A stretch of DNA of 64,000 nt from an uncultured Gemmatimonadota bacterium (GCA_964626665.1 CAZVGK010000001.1:141914-205913); one strand, 5' to 3'. Positions 29,967 through 49,671 are shown, numbered from the stretch's first letter. Translations and numbers: made by a program. The notes: a model not told the origin generated them from the sequence alone.

Positions 29967-29999
29967 GAAAAAAATGACGGTTCACCACTGATTACTGAT

Positions 30000-30150
30000 C
30001 CCTGTTTTTCTGTGCATAGTCCGTGGTTATCTGTGGTAAATTATTACTCAATTAACGATTAGCAAGTTAAAATGAAGCCAGAAAATCCTGAGATGCGGGC
30101 CATTTTCCATTGATAATTGTTCATTGACCATTTCTTGGTCTGTCCGTGGT
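30000..30150. repeat. Composite AT-rich intergenic repeat (MITE-like) in the rpsE-rpmD spacer
   Basis: Contains ctgtttttctgtgcatagtccgtggttatctgtggt, then caattaacgattagcaagttaaaatgaa...gaaaatcctga...ttccattgataattg...accatttcttgg...tccgtggtg; related copies at 8565-8710 and 12826-12920. Confidence 0.7.
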
Positions 30151-32246: not shown

Positions 32247-32395
32247 TAACAGTTTACCACGGAATCTCACGGAAAAAAGCAATTAAGAATTGAAAATTAA
32301 AAATGAAACTTATGCTGGCCCCTCCTGATCTCTGAAGACTGATCTCTGTTTTTCTGTGCTAGTCCGTGGTCATCCGTGGTGAAATATTCTCTCCT
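32247..32395. repeat. Intergenic repeat block in the rplE-rpsZ spacer
   Basis: 32247-32312 is the near-exact reverse complement of 1146-1205; 32345-32390 matches the ctgtttttctgtgc-tagtccgtggt block at 30000-30043. Confidence 0.7.
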
Positions 32396-35642: not shown

Positions 35643-35926
35643 CTTGGTGCCGTCGATCGTTCCGTTATCCTCCCACTGTGTCCCCGGAAGATTCGAGTGG
35701 GAGCGAACTCACCTAACTTGTGGCCCACCAAATTCTCGGAGATGTATACCGGCATAAATTTGTTGCCGTTGTGGATGGCTAAGGTGTGGCCGACGAAATC
35801 TGGGGTTATTGTTGAGCGTCGCGACCAGGTTTTGATTACCTTCTTCTGCCCGGTCTCATTGAGAAGTTTGATCTTCTTTAAGAGTTTAGCGTCAACATAG
35901 GGGCCCTTTTTCACCGATCTGGGCAT
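35639..35926 (-). CDS. rpsS: 30S ribosomal protein S19
   Basis: [19 protein letters not shown]. Confidence 0.95.
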
Positions 35927-35928
35927 TT

Positions 35929-36750
35929 TTAACCTCTCCTTCTGACTATGAGCTTATCCGAGGCCTTCTTCTTCCTTGTTTTATATCCCTTAGTGGCCAC
36001 TCCCCAGGGGGTGGTGGGATGCCTTCCTCCCGAGCTTTTCCCCTCACCTCCACCCATAGGGTGGTCAACGGGGTTCATGGCAACACCTCTGACTTTTGGG
36101 CGACGGCCCAGCCAACGGGTCTTTCCTGCCGTGCCAAAGGAGATCTTTTCGTGGTCTGGATTGCCTACCGTCCCAATGGTGGCTCCACATTGAGAGGGAA
36201 AGTTCCTTACTTCCCCGGAGGGAAGCCGCAACTGCACCCGTCTCCCTTCCTTGGCGACCACCTGGGCCCCCGCGCCTGCCCCCCGGACAATTTGCCCTCC
36301 CTTCCCTGGTTTGAGCTCCACATTGTGCACTATGGTGCCTAGGGGAACTCTTATTAGGGGAAGAAAATTGCCCACTCTGATCTCGGCCTGGGGTCCGGAG
36401 CTGATGCTGTCTCCTGGCTTGAGCCCTAGGGGGGCAATTATGTATCTCTTCTCCCCGTCCGCATAATTGAGCAAGGCTATCCTTGCCGAGCGGTTGGGAT
36501 CATACTCAATGGAGGCCACCTTGGCTGGGATACCGAACTTGTCCCTTCTGAAGTCGATGATCCGATAGCGCCTCTTGTGCCCTCCCCCGCGATGTCGCAT
36601 GGTTATCCTTCCCCTGTTGTTCCTCCCTCCCTTTTTCTTCAGGGGACGGAGAAGCGGCTTCTCCGGTTGGGTCCTGGTCAACTCCTCAAATGTGGGGGAG
36701 GTCTTAAACCTCATCCCTGAGGTGATTGGATTTAGCTTCTTAATGGCCAT
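35929..36750 (-). CDS. rplB: 50S ribosomal protein L2
   Basis: [25 protein letters not shown]...; conserved C-terminal GGGEGK. Confidence 0.95.
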
Positions 36751-36839
36751 AACTTCTTTCTCAATTTAAGCGTTTCGCTAAAGCCTTAAACACGAATTCC
36801 ACAAATATACAAATAGCACGAACTACAATTCTTGTAAAT

Positions 36840-36900
36840 TCCCAGGGGATCTGTTTTTAGGGATCCTCACTCTTAATTCACATTTCTGTTTTTCTCTGAG
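36840..36900. repeat. Short AT-rich repeat in the rplB upstream spacer, shared with 43105-43150
   Basis: aggatcctcactcttaattcacatttctgtttttctctgagggatcc here versus aggatcctcattcttaattcaaaattcttaattgcc at 43110-43146. Confidence 0.5.
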
Positions 36901-37025
36901 GGATCCCACTAATCAGCAGTCAGCTCCCCCCAATTTCCAATTTTCGCCCTTACGAGTATCGACTCTTCTATTCATGTAGATTCGTTTATTCGTGTCATTT
37001 GTGTTCTAAAGCTTCTACTTTGGCC

Positions 37026-40000
37026 TTATTTGAGTAACACCATTTTTCTGGTAAGCGAGAAATCTCCTGCTTGAAAACGGCAAAAATAGATACCACTTGT
37101 CACCTCTTTTCCACTCCGATCCTTGCCATCCCAGTAAGTTTTGTAATACCCACTTGACTTATCCTCATCCACCAGAGTTTTCACTAATTGCCCTTTTATA
37201 TTATAGATCTTGAGGGTCACATAGGTGTTTCCCGCGAGTCCGTAATTGATCTCCGTGATTAGGTTAAAAGGATTAGGGTAGTTCTGGGAGAGGGTAAACA
37301 CAGATGGCACTGGAGATTCGTTGCACGAGGGTACGGACTTTTTATCCTCTCGAACATAATGGCCGGTGGTGACCAGGACGAAATCCCTCTCATAATCACT
37401 CAACTGCTTGGGGGCAGAAAAGGCCAGCCTCACCTCTTGCCCAGGAATCAACTCGGCATAGACTCCATCTGGCTGCAAAAGGGACTTCAGGACAGAACCA
37501 TTTGCTGAGTGAAGGGCCTTAGCCAGTGGACAACTCCGAATCTTTAAGGACACATCTTCAGCCCCAACCAGCCCAATAAAATCTAAATCATAAGGTATCT
37601 GCCAAAGGAGACGCACCTCTACCTCTCTCCCCTCAGATACTCTCCATGGCAACTCTACCAACTCCGTATACTTGTTCTCCCTATAACTGATTCCCAATAC
37701 TGTCTGAGATTTGGGGAAATCATCTCCAATAATCAACATAGGTTCCGCTTTGGGACGCCTTTTGCTCTGGTCTTTAGCAACCGTTCCACCTATGACCAAG
37801 GCCACTTTCCTAATCCCTTTAACCTGGCCGAAATTAACCGTGAGCTCATCCCCTCCTCTCCCCCTGAAAACCAGACCATCCGCCGCTGAAACATATTTTG
37901 AGAATTCTCCACCCAAAGAATCAACAGCAGATATTGGGCCAGTCAGCTTCTTGTAACCCAATATCTTTCCCGATGTGCTAACTGCAACCTTAACTTCAGA
38001 TGGATGCTCCACCGCCATAAGCTGTAGCTGATCGATCCAGGAGTGTTCATTTTCAAATTCGCGAAGCTCAAGATAGTAGTTTCCGTCTTCAGGGACAAGG
38101 GGTTGTTGAAGCTGGTAGTAATCGCTTATGTCCTTACCCTCATTCTCCAGCAGTTCAGCAAGAGGTAGAAGGTTATTGTCCTCTACACTCTTCTCTCCAT
38201 CCCAGGTAAACACATAGGGACAACCATTGTAGGGCGAATGATGATGATAAAAAGCTCCCATATCTGCCCTTGTCCCATCAGGATCCTTTGGACTAAGGGG
38301 ATAACCTGTATCTATGCAAGGTGAACCCGCTTGTAGGTGATAATCACCATTGGCAGAATTTAAGAACATTGGATCAGCAGATATATCTTCTCTACCTACT
38401 GCACAACCCTGGTAGTTAACGCCATTACCCCATAGGTCATTGTAAGATATGTTTGGGAAAAGATCAACATCACTATAAATACCATAATCGCTATTACTGG
38501 TGATTATGGTATTTGTAATAGTCAGATAGCAGTTATCAATGCATCGAATACCCGTGTTATTACCAGGGATCGTGTTGTTGATAATATTTGGACAGCATTG
38601 TAGTGTGCATTGAACAGCAATATTATTATTAGTGAGCAAATTCCTCTCAATATCGGGGGAGGCAGAAAACATACAACCTATCCCAAAATGTGACATATCG
38701 GTAATGGTATTACTACGGATTTTGCAGAGATGAGATGATGACCCCCAGCAGAGGATACCATAGGTATCATCACCGTTGCCAAGGATTGAGTTGTTACTAA
38801 TAGTTAGATAGTTAGAAGTAGGTGAGCAGGCTAATCCCTCGTTTTCAACAGTAATCTTATTGTGGGAAATCTCCCCCCACCCATTAGCGACAACAGCATA
38901 TTGACAGTGACTTATCTCGCTGTTGCTTATGGTGGCAAATGAATTGAACCAGACCCCTTGATAGGCGTCTTTTATGGCGCAAAAATTTAAAGTTAAATTA
39001 CCACCATCGCCAATATGGGTGGATATCCCTCCCCAATCTGAGATAGAAGGGGCCGAAGTATTTGATGAACAAAAGGTAATTTCGTAGTCATCTACCCCGA
39101 TAGCCCTTAATGCCCCATCCACCAAAAGCTCACATTTATCTGGATAAAGCCCTATATTTTGGACATCACTATTTGCCGAGAAGTAAACAGTAACCCCAGG
39201 GTCTATAGTGAGGAGGGCTCCATCATCCACAGTTACATCGCCATATACATAGATGTCCCCTGACCAGGTGGTGTTTTCAGTAATATGTCCATGAACTCCA
39301 CATGCAAGTTCGGTTTCATAAGGTATGTTGTTGTGTTTAGTAACTGTAACCTTCAACTCATCATAGGTGGAAAAAGAGGTGTTGAAGGTCGCCTCTCCGT
39401 TAGCATCGGTATATTGGATTTCGTGATAGTCCTCACTCTCTTTCCATAGACATACCAAGGCATCCGGAACACCAGCATTGATAGTAATACTGCTGGGGCC
39501 GATCTGATAGAAGCAGGGATGGGAGACGGCAAGAGGTTGAGGCACCCCTGTCCAGATCCGCAGGGCCGGATCCCCAAGGACATGGAAATCCTCGAACTCA
39601 ACCCTGGTTACCTCGGGGGTAGGTGCCCATTTTGAAGGATATCCTGCCCCACCTGTGAGGACATATTTGTCGAACATCCAGAACTTGCCGTAGTTCAGGA
39701 TCGCACCCAACCGGTCTGTCGGGCTACCGATCTGTGTGCCGCAGTACCCGGGGTCGAAGTCGTCCCAGATGGCGTCGTAGAACCCCTTGCAAAGCTCATC
39801 GTTATACCCGCTGTAGCTGATCCTGGTCGAGCCGATGAAGCCCACAACCCCCTTCCCCTGGGCCTTCAACAGTGCCTCTCCCAGGCAATCCGTGATCAGA
39901 TAATCGGGGGAGTCCAGATCGGTCTCCCCATCGAACCATCCGGTCCGGCAATTAATGCTGAACATCACCGGGAGCTTATCACCGTTACCCAGGCTGGGAA

Positions 40001-41471
40001 TATCCTCGGTGACGAACCACGGCTTATTCCAACCATTGTAGCCACCAGATGGGGCATTATAGGAGTCTCCGTGATCCCGATGATTGACTAAGAAACATCC
40101 CTGGTTGATCGCATCGATCACGTCCTGGGTGGTGCCATCGAAGGTCAGATGCCCCGGGATGGGATCTCCATTGTGGTAGTACTGAGGGGTTGACCCTATT
40201 GAGCAGGTGTAAACCCTCTGACGGTCATACCCCTCGCCCTCTAAGAAATCCTGGACCACCTCAGAGGTGTAAATGAAAAACCTGTCCTCCCGGCCATCAG
40301 GTTTGAAGTCCTCGAAATGGCCCGCCAACAGAACCCGGTTGAACCACTCCGAGCTTGTTGTATACGGATCCCGCTCATACCCCAGGATCTTGTCCACGAC
40401 TATCCCGATATCCGACTCATCCACCGGCAACCTCCCCACCAGGATATCGGGGAAATCGACCAACTGAGTGTCAGGTGGGTCGTTCTCTGTATCGACTGTG
40501 GCGTAGTAGAGATCAGTCCCGACCTTTTCGTCTCCAAATGGATGAGGATACTTGTAATGGACTGGTAGAAGATCTGCATCGCCGACCAGAAGGAGAAAAG
40601 ATGGGGCCGGATCCCAGGTGTCATAGGCAACCTGGACATAATCGGCGATCTGGTCAGCCGTGGGATCACCCCCTAACTCCGAGAGCTTGACGACTCTGGT
40701 CTTGAGTCCTGTCCGCTGCCTCCATTCAGCTAAAGGCAGGATCTCATCGTAAAGGTCGTCATGCACCATGATCAGGTAGTCCGCCCCGTCGCCACCCTTC
40801 CCCTTCCCCCCACCCACTGGTTCGTAGTTGAGGGCCAGCCTGTTGAGCATAGACCGAAAATGGGGGGAATCCTTGGGGCTGGCCACGGATCCGGCACCAC
40901 TCACGCTCACCCTGAGCTCGGGATAGACCCTCAACTGCCCGGTAACAGGATTGTGCTGCACCGGGTAGAGGATGACCAGGACAAGCCTATGACCCCGAAG
41001 TACCCTGGGAAAGCTGAGGGCGACTATGTTCTTCGGGTAAAAGCCGTCCTCGGAATATAGGGAGTCATCCCTGACGAACTCGGTCGTGTCGTCCCACTCG
41101 ATCCGTGGCTCCTGGGCCGGATAGACCAGATACCCATCCAGGATCTGACTGGTCGAGTCGATGATGGTGACCGTGGGCTCGACCCCGGGCTCGATCTCCA
41201 TCAGTATGGCCACGGTGGGGAGCTCTGGCCGGCCGATCTCGGCGATATGCCCGCCGCCGGAAAACCTCAGCAGTTGATAGGTATCCCCCTCGGCCTCCAT
41301 GTCGTGGCTGATCAGACCATATGTCTCCAGCTCGATGATTTCCGAGCCAGAAAGGGTAATCTGCGGCCTGGTCGGAGTGGTCGCATCCCCAAAGGAGACC
41401 CACATTCCGTAACCAGCGCTGGGGACAAATCCCAGCAAGGCCACCACTATAAGAAAACGAATCGCCTTCAT
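37026..41471 (-). CDS. Secreted multidomain gingipain-like cysteine peptidase (family C25 fold) with parallel beta-helix repeats and a Por/T9SS-type C-terminal sorting domain
   Basis: Signal peptide; His region VNHRDHGDS and Cys region LPVMFSINCRTGWFDG with ...LGDPALRIWTGVP, resembling the gingipain catalytic domain; Asn/Gly/Ile-rich beta-helix repeats; C-terminus LSQNYPNPFN...IYNIKGQLVKTLVD...GIYFCRFQAGDFSLTRKMVLLK. Confidence 0.75.
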   Translation of the reverse strand: MKAIRFLIVVALLGFVPSAGYGMWVSFGDATTPTRPQITLSGSEIIELETYGLISHDMEAEGDTYQLLRFSGGGHIAEIGRPELPTVAILMEIEPGVEPTVTIIDSTSQILDGYLVYPAQEPRIEWDDTTEFVRDDSLYSEDGFYPKNIVALSFPRVLRGHRLVLVILYPVQHNPVTGQLRVYPELRVSVSGAGSVASPKDSPHFRSMLNRLALNYEPVGGGKGKGGDGADYLIMVHDDLYDEILPLAEWRQRTGLKTRVVKLSELGGDPTADQIADYVQVAYDTWDPAPSFLLLVGDADLLPVHYKYPHPFGDEKVGTDLYYATVDTENDPPDTQLVDFPDILVGRLPVDESDIGIVVDKILGYERDPYTTSSEWFNRVLLAGHFEDFKPDGREDRFFIYTSEVVQDFLEGEGYDRQRVYTCSIGSTPQYYHNGDPIPGHLTFDGTTQDVIDAINQGCFLVNHRDHGDSYNAPSGGYNGWNKPWFVTEDIPSLGNGDKLPVMFSINCRTGWFDGETDLDSPDYLITDCLGEALLKAQGKGVVGFIGSTRISYSGYNDELCKGFYDAIWDDFDPGYCGTQIGSPTDRLGAILNYGKFWMFDKYVLTGGAGYPSKWAPTPEVTRVEFEDFHVLGDPALRIWTGVPQPLAVSHPCFYQIGPSSITINAGVPDALVCLWKESEDYHEIQYTDANGEATFNTSFSTYDELKVTVTKHNNIPYETELACGVHGHITENTTWSGDIYVYGDVTVDDGALLTIDPGVTVYFSANSDVQNIGLYPDKCELLVDGALRAIGVDDYEITFCSSNTSAPSISDWGGISTHIGDGGNLTLNFCAIKDAYQGVWFNSFATISNSEISHCQYAVVANGWGEISHNKITVENEGLACSPTSNYLTISNNSILGNGDDTYGILCWGSSSHLCKIRSNTITDMSHFGIGCMFSASPDIERNLLTNNNIAVQCTLQCCPNIINNTIPGNNTGIRCIDNCYLTITNTIITSNSDYGIYSDVDLFPNISYNDLWGNGVNYQGCAVGREDISADPMFLNSANGDYHLQAGSPCIDTGYPLSPKDPDGTRADMGAFYHHHSPYNGCPYVFTWDGEKSVEDNNLLPLAELLENEGKDISDYYQLQQPLVPEDGNYYLELREFENEHSWIDQLQLMAVEHPSEVKVAVSTSGKILGYKKLTGPISAVDSLGGEFSKYVSAADGLVFRGRGGDELTVNFGQVKGIRKVALVIGGTVAKDQSKRRPKAEPMLIIGDDFPKSQTVLGISYRENKYTELVELPWRVSEGREVEVRLLWQIPYDLDFIGLVGAEDVSLKIRSCPLAKALHSANGSVLKSLLQPDGVYAELIPGQEVRLAFSAPKQLSDYERDFVLVTTGHYVREDKKSVPSCNESPVPSVFTLSQNYPNPFNLITEINYGLAGNTYVTLKIYNIKGQLVKTLVDEDKSSGYYKTYWDGKDRSGKEVTSGIYFCRFQAGDFSLTRKMVLLK

Positions 41472-41488
41472 CCTAACCTCCTTGACTT

Positions 41489-42703
41489 TTATCTCACCAA
41501 CATCAACTTCCTCACATTGGTGAGGGCTCTCCCTCTTCTGTTCTCAGCCCGCAACAGGCAAAGATATATCCCACTTGGTACTTCCTTCCCTCCCCCATCC
41601 CTCCCATCCCAGATCACCCGATGCTCTCCAGGTGGCTGTGGGCCATCCACCAGTGTCCGCACCACCTGTCCCAAGATGTTGTAGACCCTCAAGGTGGTTG
41701 GAACTGACCACTGACCACTGACCACTGGGGAAGGGAGGTGGTAGGGGATGACGGTACCCGAATTGAACGGGTTCGGATAGTTCTGGCCCAGGGCGAAAAA
41801 CCCTGGAACGATGGCCTTATCCTCAGATGGAACCCAATTGTGTGGCCTTGACCTGGGGTTTCTGACCCCATCGACCTCCCCAAATTGAGGACCTGTCGGC
41901 TCCGTGGAGGTGGTGGTGCAATCACCGTCGCCGATCGTGTCCACAGGAAAGCCAAGGGTGGTGTCGATATTCCCCTCACACTGCAGGTAGTTGCCGTCCA
42001 GGAAGCCCCCTCCCATGATGGTGTGGGATCCAAAGTTCCAACCGATGGTGAATATAATGTCGTTCTCCAACAACAAAGGATTGCTCGGTTCCAACCCAAA
42101 GAGCGCTCCTCCTCCTCCCGACCTCAAAAAGCAATATTCGATCACTGGAAAGGAAGAACTGTCACAGGCGACCAAAAACCCCCCCGTCTCAACCTGACTG
42201 CTCGTCCACATCAGCTTGCAGTGGGAGATGGTGGGAGAGGCGTTAGATATCTGGATCATTATACCCTCGGCACTGCTGGTGTGCTCCACCACACAGTACC
42301 TAAGAATGCACTCCGAATCCACACAGGTATCGTTAAATTTTATCCCCCCCCAGGCAGTCCAAGGCCACTCTTCACCATCGTCGGTGAAGCTAATCATCAC
42401 ATCTGGCTTCCCGCAGGCCTCTAAGGCCCCGTTGATGGTCAACCCAATAGCCTCCTCGAACTTCAACACCATCCCCGGATCTATGACCAGCTTGTCGTTG
42501 GCCGAGATGGTTAGGTTCCCACTTATCAGATAATACCCCTCATCCCGCCAGGTGACATCATCGGTAAGCTCGTCCACCATCTGCATGGTGTAAACCGTCC
42601 CATCCCCAGGGGAAACCCAATCGGCCCAGGCCAAAAGGGGGAAACACCAGATGATGCTGATAAAGACGATTAAACTCCTCCATTCTCTCATCCTCACCTC
42701 CAA
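41489..42703 (-). CDS. Secreted protein with Por/T9SS-type C-terminal sorting domain; central domain not assigned
   Basis: Signal peptide; C-terminus ALGQNYPNPFN...LRVYNILGQVVRTLVDGPQPPGEHRVIWDGRDGGGKEVPSGIYLC. Confidence 0.65.
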   Translation of the reverse strand: MEVRMREWRSLIVFISIIWCFPLLAWADWVSPGDGTVYTMQMVDELTDDVTWRDEGYYLISGNLTISANDKLVIDPGMVLKFEEAIGLTINGALEACGKPDVMISFTDDGEEWPWTAWGGIKFNDTCVDSECILRYCVVEHTSSAEGIMIQISNASPTISHCKLMWTSSQVETGGFLVACDSSSFPVIEYCFLRSGGGGALFGLEPSNPLLLENDIIFTIGWNFGSHTIMGGGFLDGNYLQCEGNIDTTLGFPVDTIGDGDCTTTSTEPTGPQFGEVDGVRNPRSRPHNWVPSEDKAIVPGFFALGQNYPNPFNSGTVIPYHLPSPVVSGQWSVPTTLRVYNILGQVVRTLVDGPQPPGEHRVIWDGRDGGGKEVPSGIYLCLLRAENRRGRALTNVRKLMLVR

Positions 42704-42790
42704 TTCCTTACCTCACCAATATCAACTTCCTCACGTTGGTGAGAGCTCTTCCTCTTCTGTAATATAGGGACACTTCCCAATAATTGTTAA
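42704..42790. repeat. Duplicate of the 404-aa gene 3' end plus junction (ghost of a CTD gene 3' end)
   Basis: 42691-42790 aligns with 41461-41560 (…ctcaccaaYatcaacttcctcacRttggtgagRgctctYcctcttctg…); on the - strand it would encode ...RALTNVRKLILVR-stop. Confidence 0.6.
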
Positions 42791-42935
42791 GTCCTCAAGC
42801 ACTATCGTCCCCTCTGTCTCCCTCGCTTATCTTTTCACCTTTGTACCAAATCTCTATAAGCCTTTGTCTTTCGTATTTTCGATCTCTGAATTCTTTTTGC
42901 CCACTCCTGTAGATTCTTTTATCCGCGTCACCTGT

Positions 42936-42959
42936 CCCGCACTTATGCATAAGTGCGGG
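42936..42959. repeat. Perfect 24-nt palindrome in the rplW-CTD gene spacer
   Basis: cccgcacttatgca|tgcataagtgcggg. Confidence 0.5.
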
Positions 42960-43104
42960 GTGAATATTCCAAAGCTCTACAGGTCAAGGGTTCTTAGGGC
43001 TTAAGCTCCTTCGCCGGACTTGGATAGAAGGGGCCTCAAAAGGCCCTTAACCTTGCACTAAAGTGCGGCAGAATGGACATTCCTCTAAGTTCCCAAAGGT
43101 CAGA

Positions 43105-43150
43105 GATCGGTCTTTAAGGATCCTCATTCTTAATTCAAAATTCTTAATTG
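43105..43150. repeat. Short AT-rich repeat downstream of rplW, shared with 36840-36900
   Basis: aggatcctcattcttaattcaaaattcttaattgcc; the ttcttaattg module also occurs at 1160-1180 and, inverted, at 32275-32295. Confidence 0.5.
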
Positions 43151-43153
43151 CCT

Positions 43154-43444
43154 TTACCCCCCCTCAAAGATGCTGATGATGTCTCCTTCCTTTAGTTTGA
43201 CAATAGCCTTCTTCCAATTTGACCGCCTGCCCTCGTATCTTCCCATTCTCTTCGGTTTCCCCTTCATGAGCATAGTCTTTACATCCAGGACATTCACCCG
43301 AAAGAGCTTCTCCACTGCCCACTTCACCTCTATCTTGTTAGCCCTTCTATCGACCACAAAGGCATATTGATTGCTCGCTTCCTTGAGATTGTTGCTCTTC
43401 TCCGTGATATAAGGCCTTTTGATGATTGTGCGGGGGTCTCTCAT
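43154..43444 (-). CDS. rplW: 50S ribosomal protein L23
   Basis: IIKRPYITEKSNNLKEASNQYAFVVDRRANKIEVKWAVEKLFRVNV. Confidence 0.9.
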   Translation of the reverse strand: MRDPRTIIKRPYITEKSNNLKEASNQYAFVVDRRANKIEVKWAVEKLFRVNVLDVKTMLMKGKPKRMGRYEGRRSNWKKAIVKLKEGDIISIFEGG

Positions 43445-44067
43445 GATAAAGCCTCCTTAAGGGTCGAAATGGCCTCTGGGGTGATAAGGAGGAAATCTGA
43501 ATTTAATATCTCATAGGCATTGGTATTCATAGCCGTTCGTAACTTTAAGCCCGCGAGGTTAGAGGTTGCCCGGAGAAGGTTGTGGTCAGCAGAGACCACC
43601 AGCAAAAGGCCCTTCTTCCCCTTTAACCCTAATCTTTCCAAGAAGGAGGCGAAGGCCTTTGTCTTTGGCGACTCCAGTTTTACCTCATCTAATCCCCAGA
43701 CTGCACCCCTTTGGGCCAGGGAGGAAAGGGCGGATTTGAGGGCTAACCGCCTCATTTTTTTGGGAATTTCCTTGTGCCTGGGGTGAGGAGAAGGACCAAA
43801 GGTTTTGCCCCCACCCACCCAGAGGGGAGAGTTGGAGCTTCCTGCCCTTGCCCTTCCGGTGCCCTTCTGTCTCCAGGGCTTGGCCCCTCCCCCCTTCATT
43901 TGGGAGCGGCCTTTAGCCATTGCTGTCCCCTGGCCCTGGTTATAGGAGTAGGCCTTAAGGTAGGCATAAAGGGCCCCTTGGTTAGGGGCGATCTCAAAGA
44001 CCTCTTTGGGGAGCTTCAAACTACCTATCTCTTCCCCGTTAAGGGAGTAGTGGGGGATCTCTTTCAT
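43441..44067 (-). CDS. rplD: 50S ribosomal protein L4
   Basis: GGGAKPWRQKGTGRARAGSSNSPLWVGGGKTFGP. Confidence 0.95.
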   Translation of the reverse strand: MKEIPHYSLNGEEIGSLKLPKEVFEIAPNQGALYAYLKAYSYNQGQGTAMAKGRSQMKGGGAKPWRQKGTGRARAGSSNSPLWVGGGKTFGPSPHPRHKEIPKKMRRLALKSALSSLAQRGAVWGLDEVKLESPKTKAFASFLERLGLKGKKGLLLVVSADHNLLRATSNLAGLKLRTAMNTNAYEILNSDFLLITPEAISTLKEALS

Positions 44068-44687
44068 CCTTGAACCTTTCTGACAATGAGGTAGCTCTGG
44101 GGTGGCCCGGGAAGAGATCCCTTGATGGCCAATAGATTCTTTTCAGGGATGAGCTTAACTAAGACTGAATTGCGCACAGTTACCCTTCTCCCTCCAGTCT
44201 TCCCCGCCATCTTTGTCCCCTTATAGACCCGGGAGGGACTGGAGGAGGCACCGATGGAACCTGGCGCCCGATGCCTGTCTGACTGCCCATGAGTCTTTGG
44301 CCCTCCCCGAAAGCCATATTTTTTCACTACGCCCATAAACCCCTTCCCCTTGGATATTCCCACCACATCCACGGTCTCCCCTGGGGAAAAGATATCCGCT
44401 TTTATCTCGGTTCCCACTTTCATCTCCTCCCCCCAGTCCTTAAATTCCCGCAATATCCGATAGCTGGTTACCCCGGCCCCTTTGAAATGGCCCAAGAGGG
44501 GTTTGGTTACCTTCTTCTCCTTGATGGGCTCAAAGCCCAATTGCAGGGCGCTGTAGTCGTCCCTCTCCGGGGTCTTTACCTGCACGACTTGGCAGGGGCC
44601 AGCCTCGACCAAGGTCACTGGTAGGGATTTTCCGTCCTCTCCGAAGATGGTGGTCATCCCCAATTTTTTGCCGATTATTCCCCTCAT
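44064..44687 (-). CDS. rplC: 50S ribosomal protein L3
   Basis: MRGIIGKKLGMTTIFGEDG...; FRGGPKTHGQSDRHRAPGSIG. Confidence 0.95.
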   Translation of the reverse strand: MRGIIGKKLGMTTIFGEDGKSLPVTLVEAGPCQVVQVKTPERDDYSALQLGFEPIKEKKVTKPLLGHFKGAGVTSYRILREFKDWGEEMKVGTEIKADIFSPGETVDVVGISKGKGFMGVVKKYGFRGGPKTHGQSDRHRAPGSIGASSSPSRVYKGTKMAGKTGGRRVTVRNSVLVKLIPEKNLLAIKGSLPGPPQSYLIVRKVQG

Positions 44688-44690
44688 CGC

Positions 44691-44999
44691 TCAGACTCTT
44701 ATCTCCACATCCACTCCGGCAGGAAGGTCTAACCTCATCAAGGAGTCTACCGTCTGAGGAGTGGTATCTTCAATGTCTATAAGCCTTTTGTGGATTCTGG
44801 TCTCAAATTGCTCCCGGGATTTTTTGTCCACATGGGGGGAGCGTAAAACAGTATAGATGGACCGCTTGGTGGGTAGAGGTATGGGACCTAAGACCTTGGC
44901 CCCTGCCCTCTTAGCTGCCCTGACGATCTCACCGGTTGAGCGGTCAAGCATCACATGATCATAGGCTTTTAGCCTAATTCTTATCTTCTGGCCTGGCAC
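44691..44999 (-). CDS. rpsJ: 30S ribosomal protein S10 (GTG start)
   Basis: [43 protein letters not shown]; GGAGG RBS. Confidence 0.95.
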
Positions 45000-45041
45000 C
45001 TATTAACCTCCTCTTTCTTGAGACTGAAACTCATCAAGATA

Positions 45042-46934
45042 CTATTTGAGAAGCGCCATCTTTTTAGCAACTTTAACATCCCCAGCTTGGATTTTATAAA
45101 AATAAACCCCACTTGCCACCTCTTGCCCATTGTCGTCTCTTCCTCCCCAACAGATATTATACCGGCCGGCTCTTTGTCTCTCATCTACTAAGGTTTTAAC
45201 CTTCTGTCCTAAGAGATTGTAAACAACCAAACTCACCTGGGCATCCATCGGAAGTTCATAGCCTATCTCGGTCTCCGGGTTGAAAGGATTGGGGAAATTC
45301 TGGGCCACAAAAAACTCCTTTGGCAATTTTTCGTCTTCATTGGGTTCTACAAACACTTCGACTGAGTAAGACGCCTCCATAACCCCCCAGATGTTATAGA
45401 CCTCGATGGTTATTGTGCTGTCCCAAACTTCATCCATAGGATCTTCGTAACTAAAGGTGAAGCCTGTCACTTGGTCATTAGGCGGATAACCTCCAAAGTC
45501 AGTTGGATGAATGGTTATCCCATTATGTGTGGGGTTGTCGTCCCCACAGTTGTGTTGGTCATCATAGTCCACATACTTATCATAACTCCATCCTCCTGTG
45601 CCCGAGCCGTATACCCGCACCCTATTCAGATCAAGTTCGTTCCCAGGCACTGTCACCCAAAAAGAGGCTCTCGGCGAATGGGAGCTAACACCCCATATGG
45701 TCATATTTTCAGTATCTGTATGGGGCAAAACATTCATCGGGTTCCTTAAGTAAGAAAAGGCGGTTCCACCCAGGTAATCCTCAGCATGTAAGTGATCAAG
45801 CCCAATATGCCTAATCCCTCCAATTCTGGTCAGTCCAGCAAAAACACTATCTCCAAAATTTACACTGGGATTTACATGCACATATTCCATACGCTGATTT
45901 GGAATCACAGCATCTCTAATCCTAACCGACTGGCTGCCTATGTGATCAACAACACCGGTAAAAACAGCGTAAACATCATCCTCTGTCGCAGGATTATCAT
46001 CATCATCAATGTCAAGTCCGCCATGCCAATCAAAGGTAGTGTCATTCCCAGAGATTAGGATTCTCGGCCCAAAGGGACTGGTTAAACTATGAAGGGGTGT
46101 GGTGTTTCGAGACAAAGGCCAGTAATAATTCTCCGTTCTAATTCTCAGAATAACATCGTCAACAAATGCGCCTTTATGTGTCTGAGTGCCATCGCTTTCG
46201 AAAGCAAACGCTATCCAAACTTGAGGGTGACCACAAACATTACCTATGTCAGGGACATTGGTCAGATCGAAGTTTTCAAAGCGCCAGACATCCCCTCCAT
46301 CGCCATAGGCCGCATAACCTGAGAAATTTGTGCCATCGATTGATGCAAGTCGAGAGAACATATCAGCTTCGTACATCGTACGACACCAATAATAAAAGTG
46401 CAGCTCCGCATCGGTGACGTTGCCAACACTAAGGTCGCAAGGACCCCAAATCATAAAGGTGAGAACATTATTGGCATAATCATCAAACTCTGGATCAAGG
46501 CCATTTACCCCATCCCGGCAACACCATGCACTATATTTTCCTGAATGAGGATTATAGTCATCTTTACCCCATAAATGACCGGTGGGATTGCCTGTGTGCC
46601 CAACATCTCGGCGGCTCCAAGCATATCTGGGAAAAGACGATTCGAAATCTTCGGTCATAATGTTAACCCAATGTGGCAGAAGGAGGGCATCATTCCCATC
46701 TTTGATGTTTCCATTCTGGCTGTTTCCCATATGTATAATGCGTACACTTTCTGAAAGTTCTGAATTTTTGCCACAAGAAACCAATGCTTTATCTCCATCC
46801 AGCAATTGATAGTGAATCTTCTGCGAGCTGACAAATTCCCCGATTTCAACTTTAGCTAAAGCAACGGTAGCACCTATTAGAGGAAACCCTATTATAAAAG
46901 AAGCACATATTCCTAATTTCCAATGAACCTGCAT
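45042..46934 (-). CDS. Secreted protein with a possible M23-like metallopeptidase region and a Por/T9SS-type C-terminal sorting domain
   Basis: Signal peptide; HGGLDI and LDHLHAE resemble the M23 HxxxD and HxH motifs (tentative); C-terminus FFVAQNFPNPFN...VYNLLGQKVKTLVD...GVYFYKIQAGDVKVAKKMALLK; AT-rich third codon positions. Confidence 0.6.
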   Translation of the reverse strand: MQVHWKLGICASFIIGFPLIGATVALAKVEIGEFVSSQKIHYQLLDGDKALVSCGKNSELSESVRIIHMGNSQNGNIKDGNDALLLPHWVNIMTEDFESSFPRYAWSRRDVGHTGNPTGHLWGKDDYNPHSGKYSAWCCRDGVNGLDPEFDDYANNVLTFMIWGPCDLSVGNVTDAELHFYYWCRTMYEADMFSRLASIDGTNFSGYAAYGDGGDVWRFENFDLTNVPDIGNVCGHPQVWIAFAFESDGTQTHKGAFVDDVILRIRTENYYWPLSRNTTPLHSLTSPFGPRILISGNDTTFDWHGGLDIDDDDNPATEDDVYAVFTGVVDHIGSQSVRIRDAVIPNQRMEYVHVNPSVNFGDSVFAGLTRIGGIRHIGLDHLHAEDYLGGTAFSYLRNPMNVLPHTDTENMTIWGVSSHSPRASFWVTVPGNELDLNRVRVYGSGTGGWSYDKYVDYDDQHNCGDDNPTHNGITIHPTDFGGYPPNDQVTGFTFSYEDPMDEVWDSTITIEVYNIWGVMEASYSVEVFVEPNEDEKLPKEFFVAQNFPNPFNPETEIGYELPMDAQVSLVVYNLLGQKVKTLVDERQRAGRYNICWGGRDDNGQEVASGVYFYKIQAGDVKVAKKMALLK

Positions 46935-46952
46935 AACTCCCCCTACTCTAAG

Positions 46953-48353
46953 TCAAAGACTAGCCTTAACTTTTTGAACCACTTTTCTTCCCCTATCCAA
47001 AATGATGAAAGACCTCATCCCATTTTCGTAACTCATCATAGGGAGGATGCGAACTGTGTCATAAGACTTCTTGCATATTTCACCTGTTTCTAAACTAAAG
47101 ATAACGGCAACCTCCTCAAATTTTAAGCTAACTCTCTCCCTTCTGCGCATCGTAGTAACAAAGCTCTTGTTAATGGTAGATGCGCAACATTGATGCCAAT
47201 AACTATTCCAGTCTTTCCCTAAAACTTTTCTCCATCTTCTTTTTCCAGTAAGAAGATCAAAGATATCTATCGTAGATGGAGGCCCACTTTCGGCAAGGAG
47301 ACTCTTAGAGTCGTCAATAAAACAGAACCAGTTTAATCCTCCTACTTTTTCTATCCGCCTTTCGGGCCCCATTGCTGCCTCTATCGTCACAAAGTCTTTG
47401 CTGTTCCACAATATATCCCCTTCATTGCTTAATACTACCAGTCTCCTCTCCCCGCCGCTTCTCTCTTCACCCGGAAGATTGGAATAGTCCACCGCAATGG
47501 CCATAAACTTCCCACTTTCACTCACCTCAAGTTGCGGTATTTCTGTTGGATTAAAAAACAATCTAAAGTGAAGGGGATCTCCTAATCTTTCACCAATATC
47601 AATTTCCCACTTCGTTTTTAAATTCTTTACATTAAAAAGAAGCAACTTGACATAAGGCCTTTCCAGGTTGTATCCCTTGAAATAGACGACTTCGCTGTCA
47701 TTTAAAAATGTGGCCACCCAATTAAATTCCGTGCGTATAATTTTAGAACCTCTCTCAATGGATTCCTTCCCTTTGTCCCACCATAACTCCTCACCAGTTC
47801 TATTATCAAAAACCCTGAAATATCCACCCCACCTTTCGACACCGCTTTTGTGAGTTGTTATGGCATAGTCACCTTTGGGCGATAAGGTGAGTCCTGGTGC
47901 AAAAAGAGGAGTCTCCCACTTGAGATTGCCATCCTTGTCGTAACTCTTCGTAATCACCCACTCACATCCGGCACGAGAATTTATGATTACTTCTCCCCCT
48001 TCCGCTGAGATCGACACATTATCCACTCCACCATAATATTCGCCACGTTCATCTGGCTTCAGGTCAAATCTCTTCTCCCACAAAATATTTCCATTAGGCC
48101 CCAAATAGTAAACAACACTGCAAAGGCCTTCCCTCTTATCAAAAATATCTGTCAGAACAACTATGTTCTCATTGCCAACCTGGATGTCTCGTATCTTGCC
48201 TCCAAATTCCCTTTCCCAAATCAGCTTTGAGTTGGGGAATAAGCCCTTTGCCGGCGATTCCGCTATGGCACTGCCTACCCACATCATCAACAACGCCAAT
48301 ACAGAGAGAGCCAGAACCCTCAGGATTCCTTTTCTCAACACTTGCTTCCCCAT
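46953..48353 (-). CDS. Hypothetical secreted or membrane-anchored protein (466 aa), possibly beta-propeller-like
   Basis: N-terminal signal/anchor (LRVLALSVLALLMMWVGSAIA); Trp/Gly-rich repeats; AT-rich codon usage like the neighbouring 630-aa gene; 18 bp upstream of it. Confidence 0.55.
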   Translation of the reverse strand: MGKQVLRKGILRVLALSVLALLMMWVGSAIAESPAKGLFPNSKLIWEREFGGKIRDIQVGNENIVVLTDIFDKREGLCSVVYYLGPNGNILWEKRFDLKPDERGEYYGGVDNVSISAEGGEVIINSRAGCEWVITKSYDKDGNLKWETPLFAPGLTLSPKGDYAITTHKSGVERWGGYFRVFDNRTGEELWWDKGKESIERGSKIIRTEFNWVATFLNDSEVVYFKGYNLERPYVKLLLFNVKNLKTKWEIDIGERLGDPLHFRLFFNPTEIPQLEVSESGKFMAIAVDYSNLPGEERSGGERRLVVLSNEGDILWNSKDFVTIEAAMGPERRIEKVGGLNWFCFIDDSKSLLAESGPPSTIDIFDLLTGKRRWRKVLGKDWNSYWHQCCASTINKSFVTTMRRRERVSLKFEEVAVIFSLETGEICKKSYDTVRILPMMSYENGMRSFIILDRGRKVVQKVKASL

Positions 48354-48449
48354 TTTAAAGCCTCCAAATTAGAGATATACCCTCCCATAGTAACCACCAA
48401 AATTTCTCCTAAACCTCACCCCTTTCCTTTGAGGAAAACAGAAATACTC

Positions 48450-49655
48450 CTATTTTATAACCTCTGCTACGACCCCTGCTCCCACGGTTCTTCCCCCCTC
48501 CCTGATGGCAAACCGTAGCTCCTTCTCCATCGCTATCGGCGTGATTAGCTCCCCCTCTATGGTCACATTATCCCCGGGCATGACCATCTCTACCCCCTCC
48601 GGTAGCTTTACCACCCCAGTCACATCCGTGGTGCGAAAATAAAACTGCGGCCTATACCCACCGAAGAAAGGTGTATGCCTACCCCCTTCCTCCTTCGTCA
48701 ATACATAGACCTCACCCTTAAACTTGGTATGCGGGGTGATCGACCCCGGGGCTGCTATTACCATCCCCCTCTCTAACTCATCCCTGTTTACCCCCCGCAA
48801 CAGCAAACCCACATTGTCCCCAGCCTCTGCCCGATCCAGGATCTTCCGAAACATCTCTACCCCAGTCACTACCGTCTTCTTCGTTTCCCTGATCCCTACC
48901 CTCTCCACCGCATTCCCTACCTTCACCGTCCCCCTCTCTACCCTCCCTGTCCCTACTGTCCCTCGCCCAGTAATGGAAAATACATCCTCCACAGACAGCA
49001 AGAAGGGCTTATCCAAATCCCTCTTCGGCTGAGGTATATACTTGTCCACCGCATCCATTAGCTCATAGATGCTCTTGAAGGCCTCACTCTCCTTCACCTC
49101 AGGGTTGGCTGCTGCCTCCATCGCCCGCAGGGCACTTCCCCTGATCACCGGCACCTCATCCCCCGGGAAGCTATACTCCGTGAGCAACTCCCTGACCTCT
49201 AACTCTACCAAATCCAATAGCTCAGGATCATCTACCTGATCTACCTTGTTCATATAGACTACTATATAGGGCACCCCTACCTGCCTGGCCAAAAGGATGT
49301 GCTCCCTGGTCTGGGGCATCGGCCCATCAGCAGCGGATACCACCAGGATGGCCCCATCCATCTGCGCCGCCCCGGTGATCATATTCTTCACATAATCGGC
49401 ATGCCCCGGACAGTCTATGTGCGCATAATGCCTGGCGGCGGTCTCATACTCCACATGGGCTATCGCTATGGTTAACCCCCGCTCCTTCTCCTCAGGAGCA
49501 TTGTCTATAGAATCAAATGTCCGGGCCTCCGCCAGGCCCTTCCTATGCAAGATCATGGTAATCGCCGCGGTCAAAGTGGTCTTCCCATGATCCACATGCC
49601 CAATAGTCCCTATGTTTATGTGCGGCTTCGTGCGCTCAAACTTCTTCTTCGCCAT
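48450..49655 (-). CDS. tuf: Elongation factor Tu
   Basis: [15 protein letters not shown]...DCPGHADY... Confidence 0.97.
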
Positions 49656-49671
49656 CTATCTATTCCTCCTT

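What the first reader, a model, noticed from the sequence alone, without database searches (positions are those of the whole stretch)
37026..41471. The 1481-aa peptidase gene looks like a compositional chimera
The N-terminal half of the protein (propeptide and C25-like catalytic region, roughly 39500-41471) is rich in G/C-ending codons (GAC, GTC, CTC, GGC). The C-terminal half (beta-helix repeats and sorting domain, roughly 37026-39500) is dominated by A/T-ending codons (AAT, GAT, TAT, GGT, ATT). Such a sharp within-gene switch suggests the gene was built by recombination between modules of different origin.
Basis: seen in the sequence. Interest (0 to 1): 0.55.

Follow-up and report, generated by a model that had tools for sequence, protein, structure and literature searches.

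The report
Mosaic secreted protease in ribosomal operon
The codon-usage switch inside this 1481-aa secreted protease gene is real and marks a gene stitched together from parts with different histories; more unusually, the gene sits in a 6.3-kb insertion that splits one of the most conserved ribosomal-protein operons in bacteria.

Summary
GC3 falls from 0.70 to 0.43 at about codon 660 (window ~39491; support codons 598-664). The LLR is 55, against at most 9.3 in permutations and at most 7.6 in long host genes. Amino-acid composition predicts equal GC3 in both halves, and 17 of 18 amino acids shift the same way. The identical protein is on about 20 separately assembled contigs, so it is not a mis-assembly.

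The gene has three composition classes. The signal peptide, propeptide and C25 catalytic domain are host-like. Segments 601-722 and 1078-1481 are intermediate (GC3 ~0.49). The beta-helix (723-1077) is lowest (0.36).

Homology agrees. One relative (P0087) is 22% identical in the catalytic domain but 64% in the tail, and lacks the beta-helix. No database protein combines these modules.

The gene and a 404-aa partner form a 6.27-kb island flanked by direct repeats, inserted between rplW and rplB. The island is absent from close relatives, and 149 of 149 other bacterial loci have no such gap.

One caveat: neighbouring low-GC3 genes keep low GC3 in relatives, so low GC3 alone does not prove recent foreign origin.

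This is a well-supported mosaic of a known kind with an unusual location.

The parts
37026..41471 (-). Whole gene: 1481-aa C25 (gingipain-like) peptidase with a T9SS sorting domain; compositional mosaic
   Evidence: ORF; domain hits; GC3 profile and change-point; identical protein on about 20 contigs
41406..41471 (-). Signal peptide, codons 1-22 (MKAIRFLIVVALLGFVPSAGYG)
   Evidence: Read from the sequence; no predictor was run
40893..41297 (-). C25 propeptide (codons 59-193); GC3 0.75 over codons 1-231
   Evidence: PF08126, 69 bits; matches gingipain pro-domains 4ief_A and 5mun_A; GC3
39555..40778 (-). C25 catalytic domain (codons 232-639); His467 (40071-40073) and Cys508 (39948-39950) align to the RgpB catalytic dyad; GC3 0.67; host-like codon usage
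   Evidence: PF01364, 214 bits; alignment to 1cvr_A places H467 on H211 and C508 on C244; codon-usage z = +1.2 for codons 2-600
39480..39680 (-). Main compositional breakpoint (support interval codons 598-664); spans the conserved end of the catalytic domain including LGDPALRIWT (codons 632-641)
   Evidence: Change-point LLR 55 and support interval; 30-codon GC3 drops from 0.87 (561-590) to 0.47 (601-630); the motif is conserved in P0001 and P0087
39306..39542 (-). C25 Ig-like domain (codons 644-722); GC3 0.49 over codons 640-722, same class as codons 1078-1481
   Evidence: PF03785; GC3; stratified z against X and CTD within 0.5
38241..39305 (-). Right-handed beta-helix cassette (codons 723-1077); lowest GC3 (0.36); absent from the P0087 architecture
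   Evidence: PF13229 and PF05048; codon-usage z = -5.4; z = -2.5 to -2.9 against flanking segments; P0087 joins Ig directly to residue 1078; P0088 is 50% identical and 72.6% at nucleotide level across the beta-helix end plus the start of X
37302..38240 (-). Un-named ~310-aa double beta-sandwich domain 'X' (codons 1078-1390), CBM-like; GC3 0.48
37029..37301 (-). T9SS type-A C-terminal sorting domain (codons 1391-1481); GC3 0.49
   Evidence: TIGR04183 34 bits (cut-off 23), PF18962 29.7 bits (cut-off 27), PF13860
41489..42703 (-). Partner gene: 404-aa small beta-helix protein with CTD; GC3 0.67 and host-like; 17 nt upstream of the peptidase
   Evidence: ORF; codon-usage z = +0.1; 36% identical (E 4e-39) to the proteins preceding C25 peptidases in L006
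36849..43122 (-). 6.27-kb island inserted into the rplW-rplB spacer
   Evidence: L170 positions 6456 and 6459 map to window 43123 and 36848; L170, L171 and L172 have a ~130-nt spacer and no insert
43105..43144 (.). Left copy of the spacer-derived direct repeat flanking the island
   Evidence: Repeat family D4, 85% identity; alignment with relatives' spacers
36848..36887 (.). Right copy of the spacer-derived direct repeat
   Evidence: Repeat family D4; alignment A1
42708..42760 (-). Scar: 53-nt copy (91%) of the 3' end of the 404-aa gene, encoding ...RRGRALTNVRKLILVR*, lying just upstream of that gene
   Evidence: Repeat family D1; translation
43154..43444 (-). rplW (L23), upstream flank of the island
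   Evidence: PF00276 in the gene table; ORF
35929..36750 (-). rplB (L2), downstream flank of the island
   Evidence: PF00181 and PF03947; ORF

Best explanation
The gene is a genuine mosaic with three parts.

(a) The first ~1.8 kb (signal peptide, C25 propeptide, catalytic domain to about codon 600) and the upstream 404-aa gene have host-like codon usage. Together they form a conserved 'small beta-helix protein + C25 peptidase' cassette.

(b) The tail (end of the catalytic domain, Ig-like domain, CBM-like double beta-sandwich 'X', T9SS CTD) was replaced. The likely route is homologous recombination in the conserved end of the catalytic domain with a different C25 gene of the P0087 type, with GC3 about 0.49.

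(c) A beta-helix cassette with still lower GC3 (0.36), of the kind found fused to X in P0088, lies between Ig and X.

The product is most likely an active cysteine peptidase. It would be exported through Sec and the type IX secretion system and held at or released from the cell surface. The beta-helix and X would serve as substrate- or glycan-binding modules.

The two-gene cassette sits in a 6.27-kb island, flanked by direct repeats, that entered the rplW-rplB spacer after this lineage split from relatives with 86-89% identical L2.

Shown: the composition classes, the discordant homology, the absence of the island from relatives, the flanking repeats and the intact catalytic dyad.

Inferred: the recombination mechanism, the order of events, where the assembly happened, the secretion route and the binding function.
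For: Composition. The change-point LLR is 55, against at most 9.3 in permutations and at most 7.6 in host genes. Amino-acid composition predicts no difference. Codon-usage z is +1.2 for the N-part and +0.1 for the 404-aa gene, but -5.4 for the beta-helix and -4.3 for X; flagellar and ribosomal genes score the same, so it is not an expression effect. Segments 601-722, X and CTD are mutually indistinguishable (|z| at most 0.5), and the beta-helix is lower than each (z -2.5 to -2.9).

Homology. The hit sets of the two halves are disjoint, and no retrieved homologue combines the catalytic domain with the beta-helix or X, apart from the P0087 fragment. P0087/L002 is 22% identical in the catalytic domain, 40% in Ig and 64% in X+CTD, with Ig joined directly to X. 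Nucleotide identity is 75.6% to L002 and 72.6% to L003, confined to the tail. Identical codons at identical residues number 157 against 99 expected by chance. Relatives' genes have uniform GC3: L002 0.50, L003 0.33, L006 0.27, L173 0.48.

Cassette. The 404-aa protein is 36% identical to the proteins that precede C25 genes twice in L006.

Not an artefact. The identical 1481-aa protein occurs on about 20 contigs of 20 kb to 1 Mb, always in the same context.

Island. It is absent from L170, L171 and L172. It is flanked by direct repeats and carries a scar.

Function. PF08126, PF01364 and PF03785 match; H467 and C508 align to RgpB H211 and C244; the CTD scores above its cut-offs; X has a CBM-like fold.
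Against: No donor was found. The closest tail relatives are only 50-64% identical, so timing and source remain open.

Low GC3 is not a reliable marker of recent import in this lineage. The 630- and 466-aa genes next to rpsJ have GC3 of 0.41-0.44 here and 0.42-0.43 in relatives that differ by about 20% at nucleotide level.

The beta-helix versus Ig/X/CTD difference is only nominally significant (z about -2.5 to -2.9). The three-segment model improves on the two-segment model by only ~4.9 log-likelihood units.

The Ig-like domain is about equally similar to N-type (P0001) and tail-type (P0087) relatives, so homology does not fix the exact junction.

The whole island is absent from close relatives, so a 'host-like' N-part cannot simply be vertically inherited at this site.

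No formal phylogenetic incongruence or recombination test was run. Nothing here demonstrates secretion, activity or binding.
Confidence: 0.75

Rival explanations
1. The mosaic was assembled in another organism, and the finished gene arrived with the island. On this view the resemblance of the N-part and the 404-aa gene to host codon usage reflects a donor of similar composition, not residence in this genome.
For: The whole 6.27-kb island is absent from relatives with 86-89% identical L2. It is flanked by direct repeats, as imported islands often are. The scar at 42708-42760 suggests it was cut from a tandem array elsewhere.
Against: The N-part and the 404-aa gene are indistinguishable from 38 host genes in synonymous codon choice (z +1.2 and +0.1), so the donor would need to be a close compositional match. 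There are no mobility genes in the island (gene table) and no match to plasmid, phage or viral collections. This rival still accepts that the gene is a recombinant mosaic; it differs only on where and when it formed.
Confidence: 0.15
2. There was no recombination. The tail has low GC3 because of a local, persistent selective or mutational regime acting on certain accessory or secreted genes, the same regime that keeps the 630- and 466-aa genes low.
For: Orthologues of the 630- and 466-aa genes keep GC3 of 0.42-0.43 in relatives whose ribosomal genes are at 0.56-0.70. The tail's codon usage fits a model built from those two genes better than it fits the host model.
Against: A regime of that kind would have to switch on in the middle of one ORF, within about 60 codons. 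The 404-aa gene is also a CTD-bearing cargo gene in the same transcription unit, and it is uniformly host-like, including its CTD. Homologous genes elsewhere are uniform. Most importantly, this rival does not explain the 22% versus 64% identity to the same relative, or the beta-helix insertion relative to P0087.
Confidence: 0.06
3. Assembly chimera: two organisms' reads were joined inside the gene.
For: The source is a metagenome. Short-read contigs of the same strain break at window 37005, 21 nt past the ORF's end (37026), and at 36516 inside rplB.
Against: The identical 1481-aa protein is on about 20 contigs of 20 kb to 1 Mb from separate samples, with the same neighbours. The low-GC3 segment is internal, with host-like ribosomal genes on both sides, so two precise in-frame mis-joins would be needed. 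The ORF is intact, and its domains continue across both junctions.
Confidence: 0.02

Closest known systems
Gingipains RgpA/Kgp and HagA of Porphyromonas gingivalis (MEROPS family C25)
   Same: The layout is the same: propeptide, C25 catalytic domain with a His/Cys dyad, Ig-like domain, then C-terminal binding (adhesin) domains and a T9SS CTD. In P. gingivalis, domain rearrangement and allelic exchange of catalytic-domain and adhesin-domain variants produce mosaics unrelated to strain phylogeny (PMC5266723).
   Different: Sequence similarity is remote (E about 1e-11 to RgpB). The tail modules here are a right-handed beta-helix and a CBM-like double beta-sandwich, not haemagglutinin/cleaved-adhesin domains. 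The exchange here joins parts of clearly different base composition, whereas the gingipain case involves near-identical paralogues within one species. The host is an uncultured environmental lineage.
~800-aa C25 peptidases of uncultured bacteria and archaeal MAGs (P0001-P0016; named examples include Zixibacteria and an 'Archaeoglobus sp.' MAG)
   Same: They are the best relatives of the N-part: 40-48% identity over 95-100% of codons 1-660 and on through the Ig-like domain. In L006 each is preceded by a homologue of the 404-aa protein.
   Different: They end shortly after the Ig-like domain, or carry dockerin or PKD tails. None has the beta-helix or X. Their genes are compositionally uniform.
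P0087 (Logan SRR25383461 contig L002): C25 peptidase with an Ig-X-CTD tail
   Same: It has the same tail apart from the beta-helix: Ig 40%, X+CTD 64% identical at amino-acid level and 75.6% at nucleotide level. Its gene's GC3 of 0.50 matches the 0.48-0.49 of these segments here.
   Different: Its catalytic domain is only 22% identical. It has no beta-helix. The contig is short, and the gene is split by a frameshift or sequencing error.
P0088 ('Altiarchaeales archaeon WOR_SM1_79' bin, L003/L004): beta-helix protein ending in the start of X
   Same: The beta-helix end runs continuously into X. It is 50% identical over residues 880-1202 and 72.6% at nucleotide level, and the gene has low GC3 (0.33).
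   Different: It has no peptidase domain. Its N-terminus differs (fn3, DUF1565). X is truncated after about 125 residues.
PorU, the C25-like T9SS sortase
   Same: It shares the C25 fold family and the T9SS context.
   Different: NF033707 scores 86.9 bits against a cut-off of 420. The gene here has a gingipain-type propeptide and its own CTD, so it is cargo, not the sortase.

Membership tests
MEROPS C25 / gingipain-like cysteine peptidase | Peptidase_C25 catalytic domain above the Pfam gathering score | tested here: met
   PF01364 scores 213.7 bits (cut-off 23) over residues 232-639, full-length profile match
MEROPS C25 / gingipain-like cysteine peptidase | Catalytic His/Cys dyad conserved | tested here: met
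   H467 (HRDHGD) aligns with RgpB H211 and C508 (SINCRTG) with C244 in 1cvr_A
MEROPS C25 / gingipain-like cysteine peptidase | N-terminal inhibitory propeptide and C-terminal Ig-like domain | tested here: met
   PF08126 scores 69.2 bits and PF03785 scores 27.6 bits, both above their cut-offs; matches gingipain pro-domain chains 4ief_A and 5mun_A
MEROPS C25 / gingipain-like cysteine peptidase | Proteolytic activity and cleavage specificity | not testable with these tools
   Needs expression and an enzyme assay
Type IX secretion system cargo (type A CTD) | C-terminal sorting domain above curated cut-offs | tested here: met
   TIGR04183 scores 34 bits (cut-off 23); PF18962 scores 29.7 bits (cut-off 27); residues 1398-1478
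Type IX secretion system cargo (type A CTD) | N-terminal Sec signal peptide | tested here: inconclusive
   A hydrophobic N-terminus, MKAIRFLIVVALLGFVPSAGYG, is visible in the sequence; no signal-peptide predictor was available
Type IX secretion system cargo (type A CTD) | T9SS machinery (PorK/L/M/N, Sov, PorU/V) encoded in the genome | not tested
   Only the 64-kb window was available. Three other CTD-bearing genes lie in the window
PorU T9SS sortase | Equivalog model NF033707 at or above its cut-off | tested here: not met
   86.9 bits against a cut-off of 420; PorU2 model 19 bits against 450
Right-handed parallel beta-helix repeat proteins | Beta_helix / NosD repeats above the gathering score | tested here: met
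   PF13229 scores 55.2 bits (cut-off 25.9); PF05048 scores 40.8 bits (cut-off 23.6)
Carbohydrate-binding modules (CBM6/32/35-type jelly-roll), for domain X | Beta-jelly-roll fold resembling solved CBMs | tested here: inconclusive
Carbohydrate-binding modules (CBM6/32/35-type jelly-roll), for domain X | Ligand-binding residues and demonstrated glycan binding | not testable with these tools
   Needs binding assays or a structure of a complex
Horizontally acquired genomic island | Present here and absent from the same site in close relatives | tested here: met
   L170, L171 and L172 (L2 86-89% identical) have a ~130-nt rplW-rplB spacer. The flanks align on both sides of window 36849-43122
Horizontally acquired genomic island | Flanking direct repeats | tested here: met
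   36848-36887 versus 43105-43144, 85% identical, derived from the ancestral spacer
Horizontally acquired genomic island | Mobility genes (integrase, transposase, relaxase) | tested here: not met
   The island holds only the two cargo genes. No similarity to plasmid, phage or viral collections
Horizontally acquired genomic island | Atypical composition across the island | tested here: not met
   Only the 3' ~2.6 kb is atypical. The 404-aa gene and the first 600 codons of the peptidase are host-like

The most novel reading that the evidence does not exclude
The rplW-rplB spacer of this lineage has captured a secreted-protease cassette that is now transcribed as part of the S10 ribosomal-protein operon. 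That would couple a T9SS protease to growth-rate-controlled ribosomal-protein transcription. The new long-range RNA structure formed between the island's 3' end and the ancestral spacer (z = -5.3, absent from uninterrupted spacers) would act as a processing or insulation element that keeps rplB and the downstream genes correctly expressed. The ~60-nt duplicated spacer would mark an integrase-independent, Campbell-type insertion route into an essential operon.
Probability: 0.2. Interest if true: 0.6.

Novelty: new variant of a known kind. Interest (0 to 1): 0.42.

Why it matters
The gene is a clean, well-delimited example of how secreted multi-domain proteases are rebuilt by swapping tails. The junction lies inside conserved coding sequence, and a second cassette is nested in the tail. 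Composition and homology tell the same story.

The domain combination (C25 catalytic domain + beta-helix + an un-named CBM-like domain + T9SS CTD) was not found in any other protein among about 5.8 billion.

The analysis also exposes a widespread domain that no family library describes (1,784 cluster representatives).

The context matters more than the chimerism. The S10 operon is among the most conserved gene arrangements in bacteria, yet here a 6.3-kb non-ribosomal island splits rplW from rplB. That raises testable questions about how an essential operon tolerates such an insertion and whether it exploits it.

There is also a methodological caution: in this lineage low GC3 persists in resident genes, so composition alone is a poor clock for gene transfer.

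Tried and rejected
(1) A genome-contig scan with L4 to find relatives gave nothing above 41% identity, so no taxon could be assigned. The L2 search shows a gap from 86-90% straight down to 72-74% across mixed phyla.

I reused those loci as a background sample for rplW-rplB spacing.

I reached equivalent relatives through the search for homologous proteins.

(4) An exact look-up of S19 found only the same strain.

(5) P0184 first looked like 'Ig + beta-helix + CTD'. Its 'Ig' match is only the edge of a long gapped beta-helix alignment, so it is not a C25 protein.

(6) The 630-aa neighbour as a possible donor of the tail: it shares only the CTD, at 49%. The 404-aa neighbour as a donor: the beta-helix cap is 28% and the CTD 43% identical. 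Both rejected.

(7) The gene upstream of the L173 peptidase is not a homologue of the 404-aa protein.

(8) Rfam on 35800-49800 found nothing credible.

(9) The consensus scan found a promoter-like site upstream of the 404-aa gene (42790-42761) and no terminator-like site on the coding strand between the peptidase and rplB. Site counts were no higher than in shuffled sequence, so this is weak evidence.

(10) The island DNA against plasmid and phage records, and the tail protein against viral contigs, gave no match.

(11) Amino-acid composition and expression level (flagellar versus ribosomal genes) were both rejected as explanations of the GC3 switch.

Full report
**Observation.** The 1481-aa ORF at 37026-41471 (- strand) exists as described. 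GC3 in 100-codon windows is 0.60-0.82 up to about codon 650 and 0.31-0.56 afterwards.
- A single change-point model places the switch after codon 660 (window 39491). GC3 is 0.698 before it and 0.428 after it. The LLR is 55.2, against a maximum of 9.3 in 500 permutations.
- The 2-log-likelihood support interval is codons 598-664.
- In 30-codon windows the drop is abrupt: 0.87 at codons 561-590 and 0.47 at 601-630.
- Five host genes of 680-1350 codons in the same window have change-point LLRs of only 1.1-7.6.

**Trivial explanations excluded.**
- Amino-acid composition: with pooled synonymous usage it predicts GC3 of 0.550 and 0.547 for the two halves. The G/C-ending fraction falls in 17 of 18 amino acids.
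- Expression level: 38 host genes have GC3 of 0.623 +/- 0.033, and flagellar genes score the same as ribosomal and RNA-polymerase genes in a codon-usage likelihood test (0.138 vs 0.139).
- Mis-assembly: the identical protein is on about 20 contigs of 20 kb to 1 Mb with the same neighbours. The odd segment is internal to an intact ORF, with host-like genes on both sides.

**Anatomy of the protein**.

| Residues | Feature |
|---|---|
| 1-22 | Signal peptide (read from the sequence) |
| 59-193 | C25 propeptide |
| 232-639 | C25 catalytic domain; H467 and C508 align with RgpB H211 and C244 |
| 644-722 | C25 Ig-like domain |
| ~723-1077 | Right-handed beta-helix |
| 1078-1390 | Domain 'X', no family match |
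| 1391-1481 | T9SS type-A CTD, above curated cut-offs |

It is not PorU: 86.9 bits against a cut-off of 420.

**A three-class mosaic.**

| Segment | GC3 | Codon-usage z vs host genes |
|---|---|---|
| Codons 1-231 (signal peptide, propeptide) | 0.75 | +1.2 (codons 2-600) |
| Catalytic domain (232-639) | 0.67 | +1.2 (codons 2-600) |
| Ig-like domain (640-722) | 0.49 | -2.6 (codons 601-722) |
| Beta-helix (723-1077) | 0.36 | -5.4 |
| X (1078-1390) | 0.48 | -4.3 |
| CTD (1391-1481) | 0.49 | -2.7 |

Tests stratified by amino acid show that 601-722, X and CTD are mutually indistinguishable (|z| <= 0.5). The N-part is higher than all of them (z 4.4-10.3), and the beta-helix is lower than each of its neighbours (z -2.5 to -2.9). 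The 404-aa gene scores z = +0.1.

**Homology gives the same picture independently.**
- The N-half finds ~800-aa C25 peptidases at 48% identity or less, with dockerin, PKD or no tails.
- The C-half finds beta-helix and CTD proteins.
- Among the 206 retrieved proteins, none combines the catalytic domain with the beta-helix or X, except the P0087 fragment.
- P0087/L002 is decisive. Its catalytic domain is 22% identical to ours, its Ig-like domain 40% and its X+CTD 64% (75.6% at nucleotide level). Its Ig-like domain runs straight into the residue matching our 1078, so it is the same tail without the beta-helix.
- P0088/L003 shows the alternative junction: the beta-helix end is continuous with X, at 50% amino-acid and 72.6% nucleotide identity.
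- The relatives' genes are compositionally uniform. Their GC3 values resemble the matching segments here: L002 0.50 against 0.48-0.49, and L003 0.33 against 0.36. This rests on single relatives and may be coincidence.
- Synonymous sites against L002 are not saturated: 157 identical codons at identical residues against 99 expected.

**Genomic context.** The gene and the 404-aa gene 17 nt upstream of it lie between rplW (L23) and rplB (L2), on the same strand.
- In three relatives with 86-89% identical L2 (about 80% nucleotide identity), the rplW-rplB spacer is ~130 nt with no insert. The flanks align on either side of window 36849-43122.
- The island is bracketed by an imperfect direct repeat of ~40-65 nt of the ancestral spacer.
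- Just upstream of the 404-aa gene lies a 53-nt scar, 91% identical to that gene's own 3' end.
- The body of the 404-aa protein is 36% identical (E 4e-39) to the small beta-helix proteins that precede C25 peptidases twice in L006. The gene pair is therefore a conserved cassette, which matches the shared host-like composition of the 404-aa gene and the N-part.
- Across 149 loci from other bacteria, the L23-to-L2 gap is 4-178 nt. Here it is 6,403 nt.

**Caveat on 'origin'.** The 630- and 466-aa genes between tuf and rpsJ are also low in GC3 (0.41 and 0.44). Their orthologues at the same place in the relatives are low too (0.42-0.43), while the relatives' ribosomal genes are at 0.56-0.70. So a low-GC3 gene class persists in this lineage, and composition alone neither dates nor proves import. 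The claim of different histories rests mainly on the discordant homology and architecture. No donor was identified, and the hits are mostly unnamed, so 'different lineages' is not demonstrated.

**Most likely history and function (inferred).**
1. A host-like cassette existed: the 404-aa beta-helix protein plus a C25 peptidase.
2. Its 3' end was replaced by recombination within the conserved end of the catalytic domain (around VLTGG...LGDPALRIWT, codons ~600-641) with a P0087-type C25 gene.
3. A beta-helix cassette of the P0088 type lies between Ig and X.
4. The cassette sits in an island that entered the rplW-rplB spacer.

The order of these events, and whether the assembly happened in this genome, are open. 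The product is predicted to be an active, T9SS-exported, gingipain-like protease whose beta-helix and CBM-like X domain target it to substrates or surfaces.

**Comparison with what is known.** The closest precedent is P. gingivalis, where gingipain catalytic-domain and adhesin-domain variants are shuffled by domain rearrangement and allelic exchange (PMC5266723). The gene here is a C25 family member by every sequence criterion tested. It differs in its tail modules, in the compositional contrast of the joined parts, and in its location.

**Verdict.** This is a new variant of a known kind, namely a mosaic multi-domain secreted protease. As a chimera its interest is moderate. The insertion into the S10 operon and the un-named X domain add some value.

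Noticed in passing
window 36849-43122 (between rplW 43154-43444 and rplB 35929-36750): The S10 ribosomal-protein operon is split by a 6.27-kb two-gene island. The L23-to-L2 gap is 6,403 nt here, 4-178 nt in 149 of 149 other bacterial loci, and ~130 nt in three close relatives that lack the island.
   Followed up: yes
window 45042-46934 and 46953-48353 (between tuf 48450-49655 and rpsJ 44691-44999): Two further non-ribosomal genes lie between tuf and rpsJ: a 630-aa CTD protein and a 466-aa protein with a weak PQQ_2/BamB-like hit. Their GC3 is 0.41 and 0.44. Orthologues sit at the same place in relatives L170 and L171 and are also low in GC3, so this composition class is persistent. Their function is unknown.
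   Followed up: partly
window 37030-36751 (- strand): The RNA between the peptidase stop and the rplB start folds unusually well (z = -5.3). A segment just after the stop (~37013-36975) pairs with the ancestral spacer just upstream of rplB (~36832-36785). Uninterrupted spacers in L170, L171 and L172 are unstructured (z +0.35 to +1.95). It could be a processing or insulation element; this was not tested.
   Followed up: partly
window 42708-42760; also 42936-42959 and 43030-43046: The island's 5' non-coding region holds a 53-nt remnant of a CTD 3' end (...RRGRALTNVRKLILVR*) and two strong hairpins: CCCGCACTTATGCATAAGTGCGGG and GGGCCTTTTGAGGCCCC. A promoter-like site lies at 42790-42761.
   Followed up: partly
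window 37302-38240 (peptidase residues 1078-1390): A widespread ~295-aa domain is absent from Pfam and NCBIfam. It occurs in 1,784 cluster representatives, mostly at or near the C-terminus of secreted proteases and PKD/PPC proteins. It is predicted to be a double beta-sandwich with CBM-like structural neighbours, and it is a candidate for a new domain family.
   Followed up: yes
window 37005 and 36516 (ends of contigs L169 and L168): Short-read contigs of the same strain, 100% identical to the window, end 21 nt past the peptidase ORF's end (L169, seen in 15 samples) and inside rplB (L168). The full-length peptidase is not recorded from Logan assemblies. This may reflect strain polymorphism at the island's edge.
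   Followed up: no
window ~1149-1203, ~29988-30045, ~32332-32388: A short (~55-58 nt) repeat is dispersed across several sites, with copies 86-94% identical. It was seen only as secondary BLAST hits and may be a REP- or MITE-like element.
   Followed up: no
L170:6426-6556, L172:1200-1328 and the window flanks 43123-43153 and 36751-36847: Even without the island, the rplW-rplB spacer of this lineage is long (~130 nt, against a median of about 22 nt elsewhere). It is conserved in sequence among relatives, but it is not predicted to be structured and has no Rfam match.
   Followed up: partly
L006 (NCBI GCA_017656505.1, labelled an Archaeoglobus sp. MAG): This contig carries a tandem array of (small beta-helix protein + C25 peptidase) x2 with GC3 ~0.27. 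Several of the best N-half hits are labelled as archaeal MAGs (Archaeoglobus, Thermoplasmatota, Promethearchaeota). This could be mis-binning or real inter-domain spread of the cassette.
   Followed up: no
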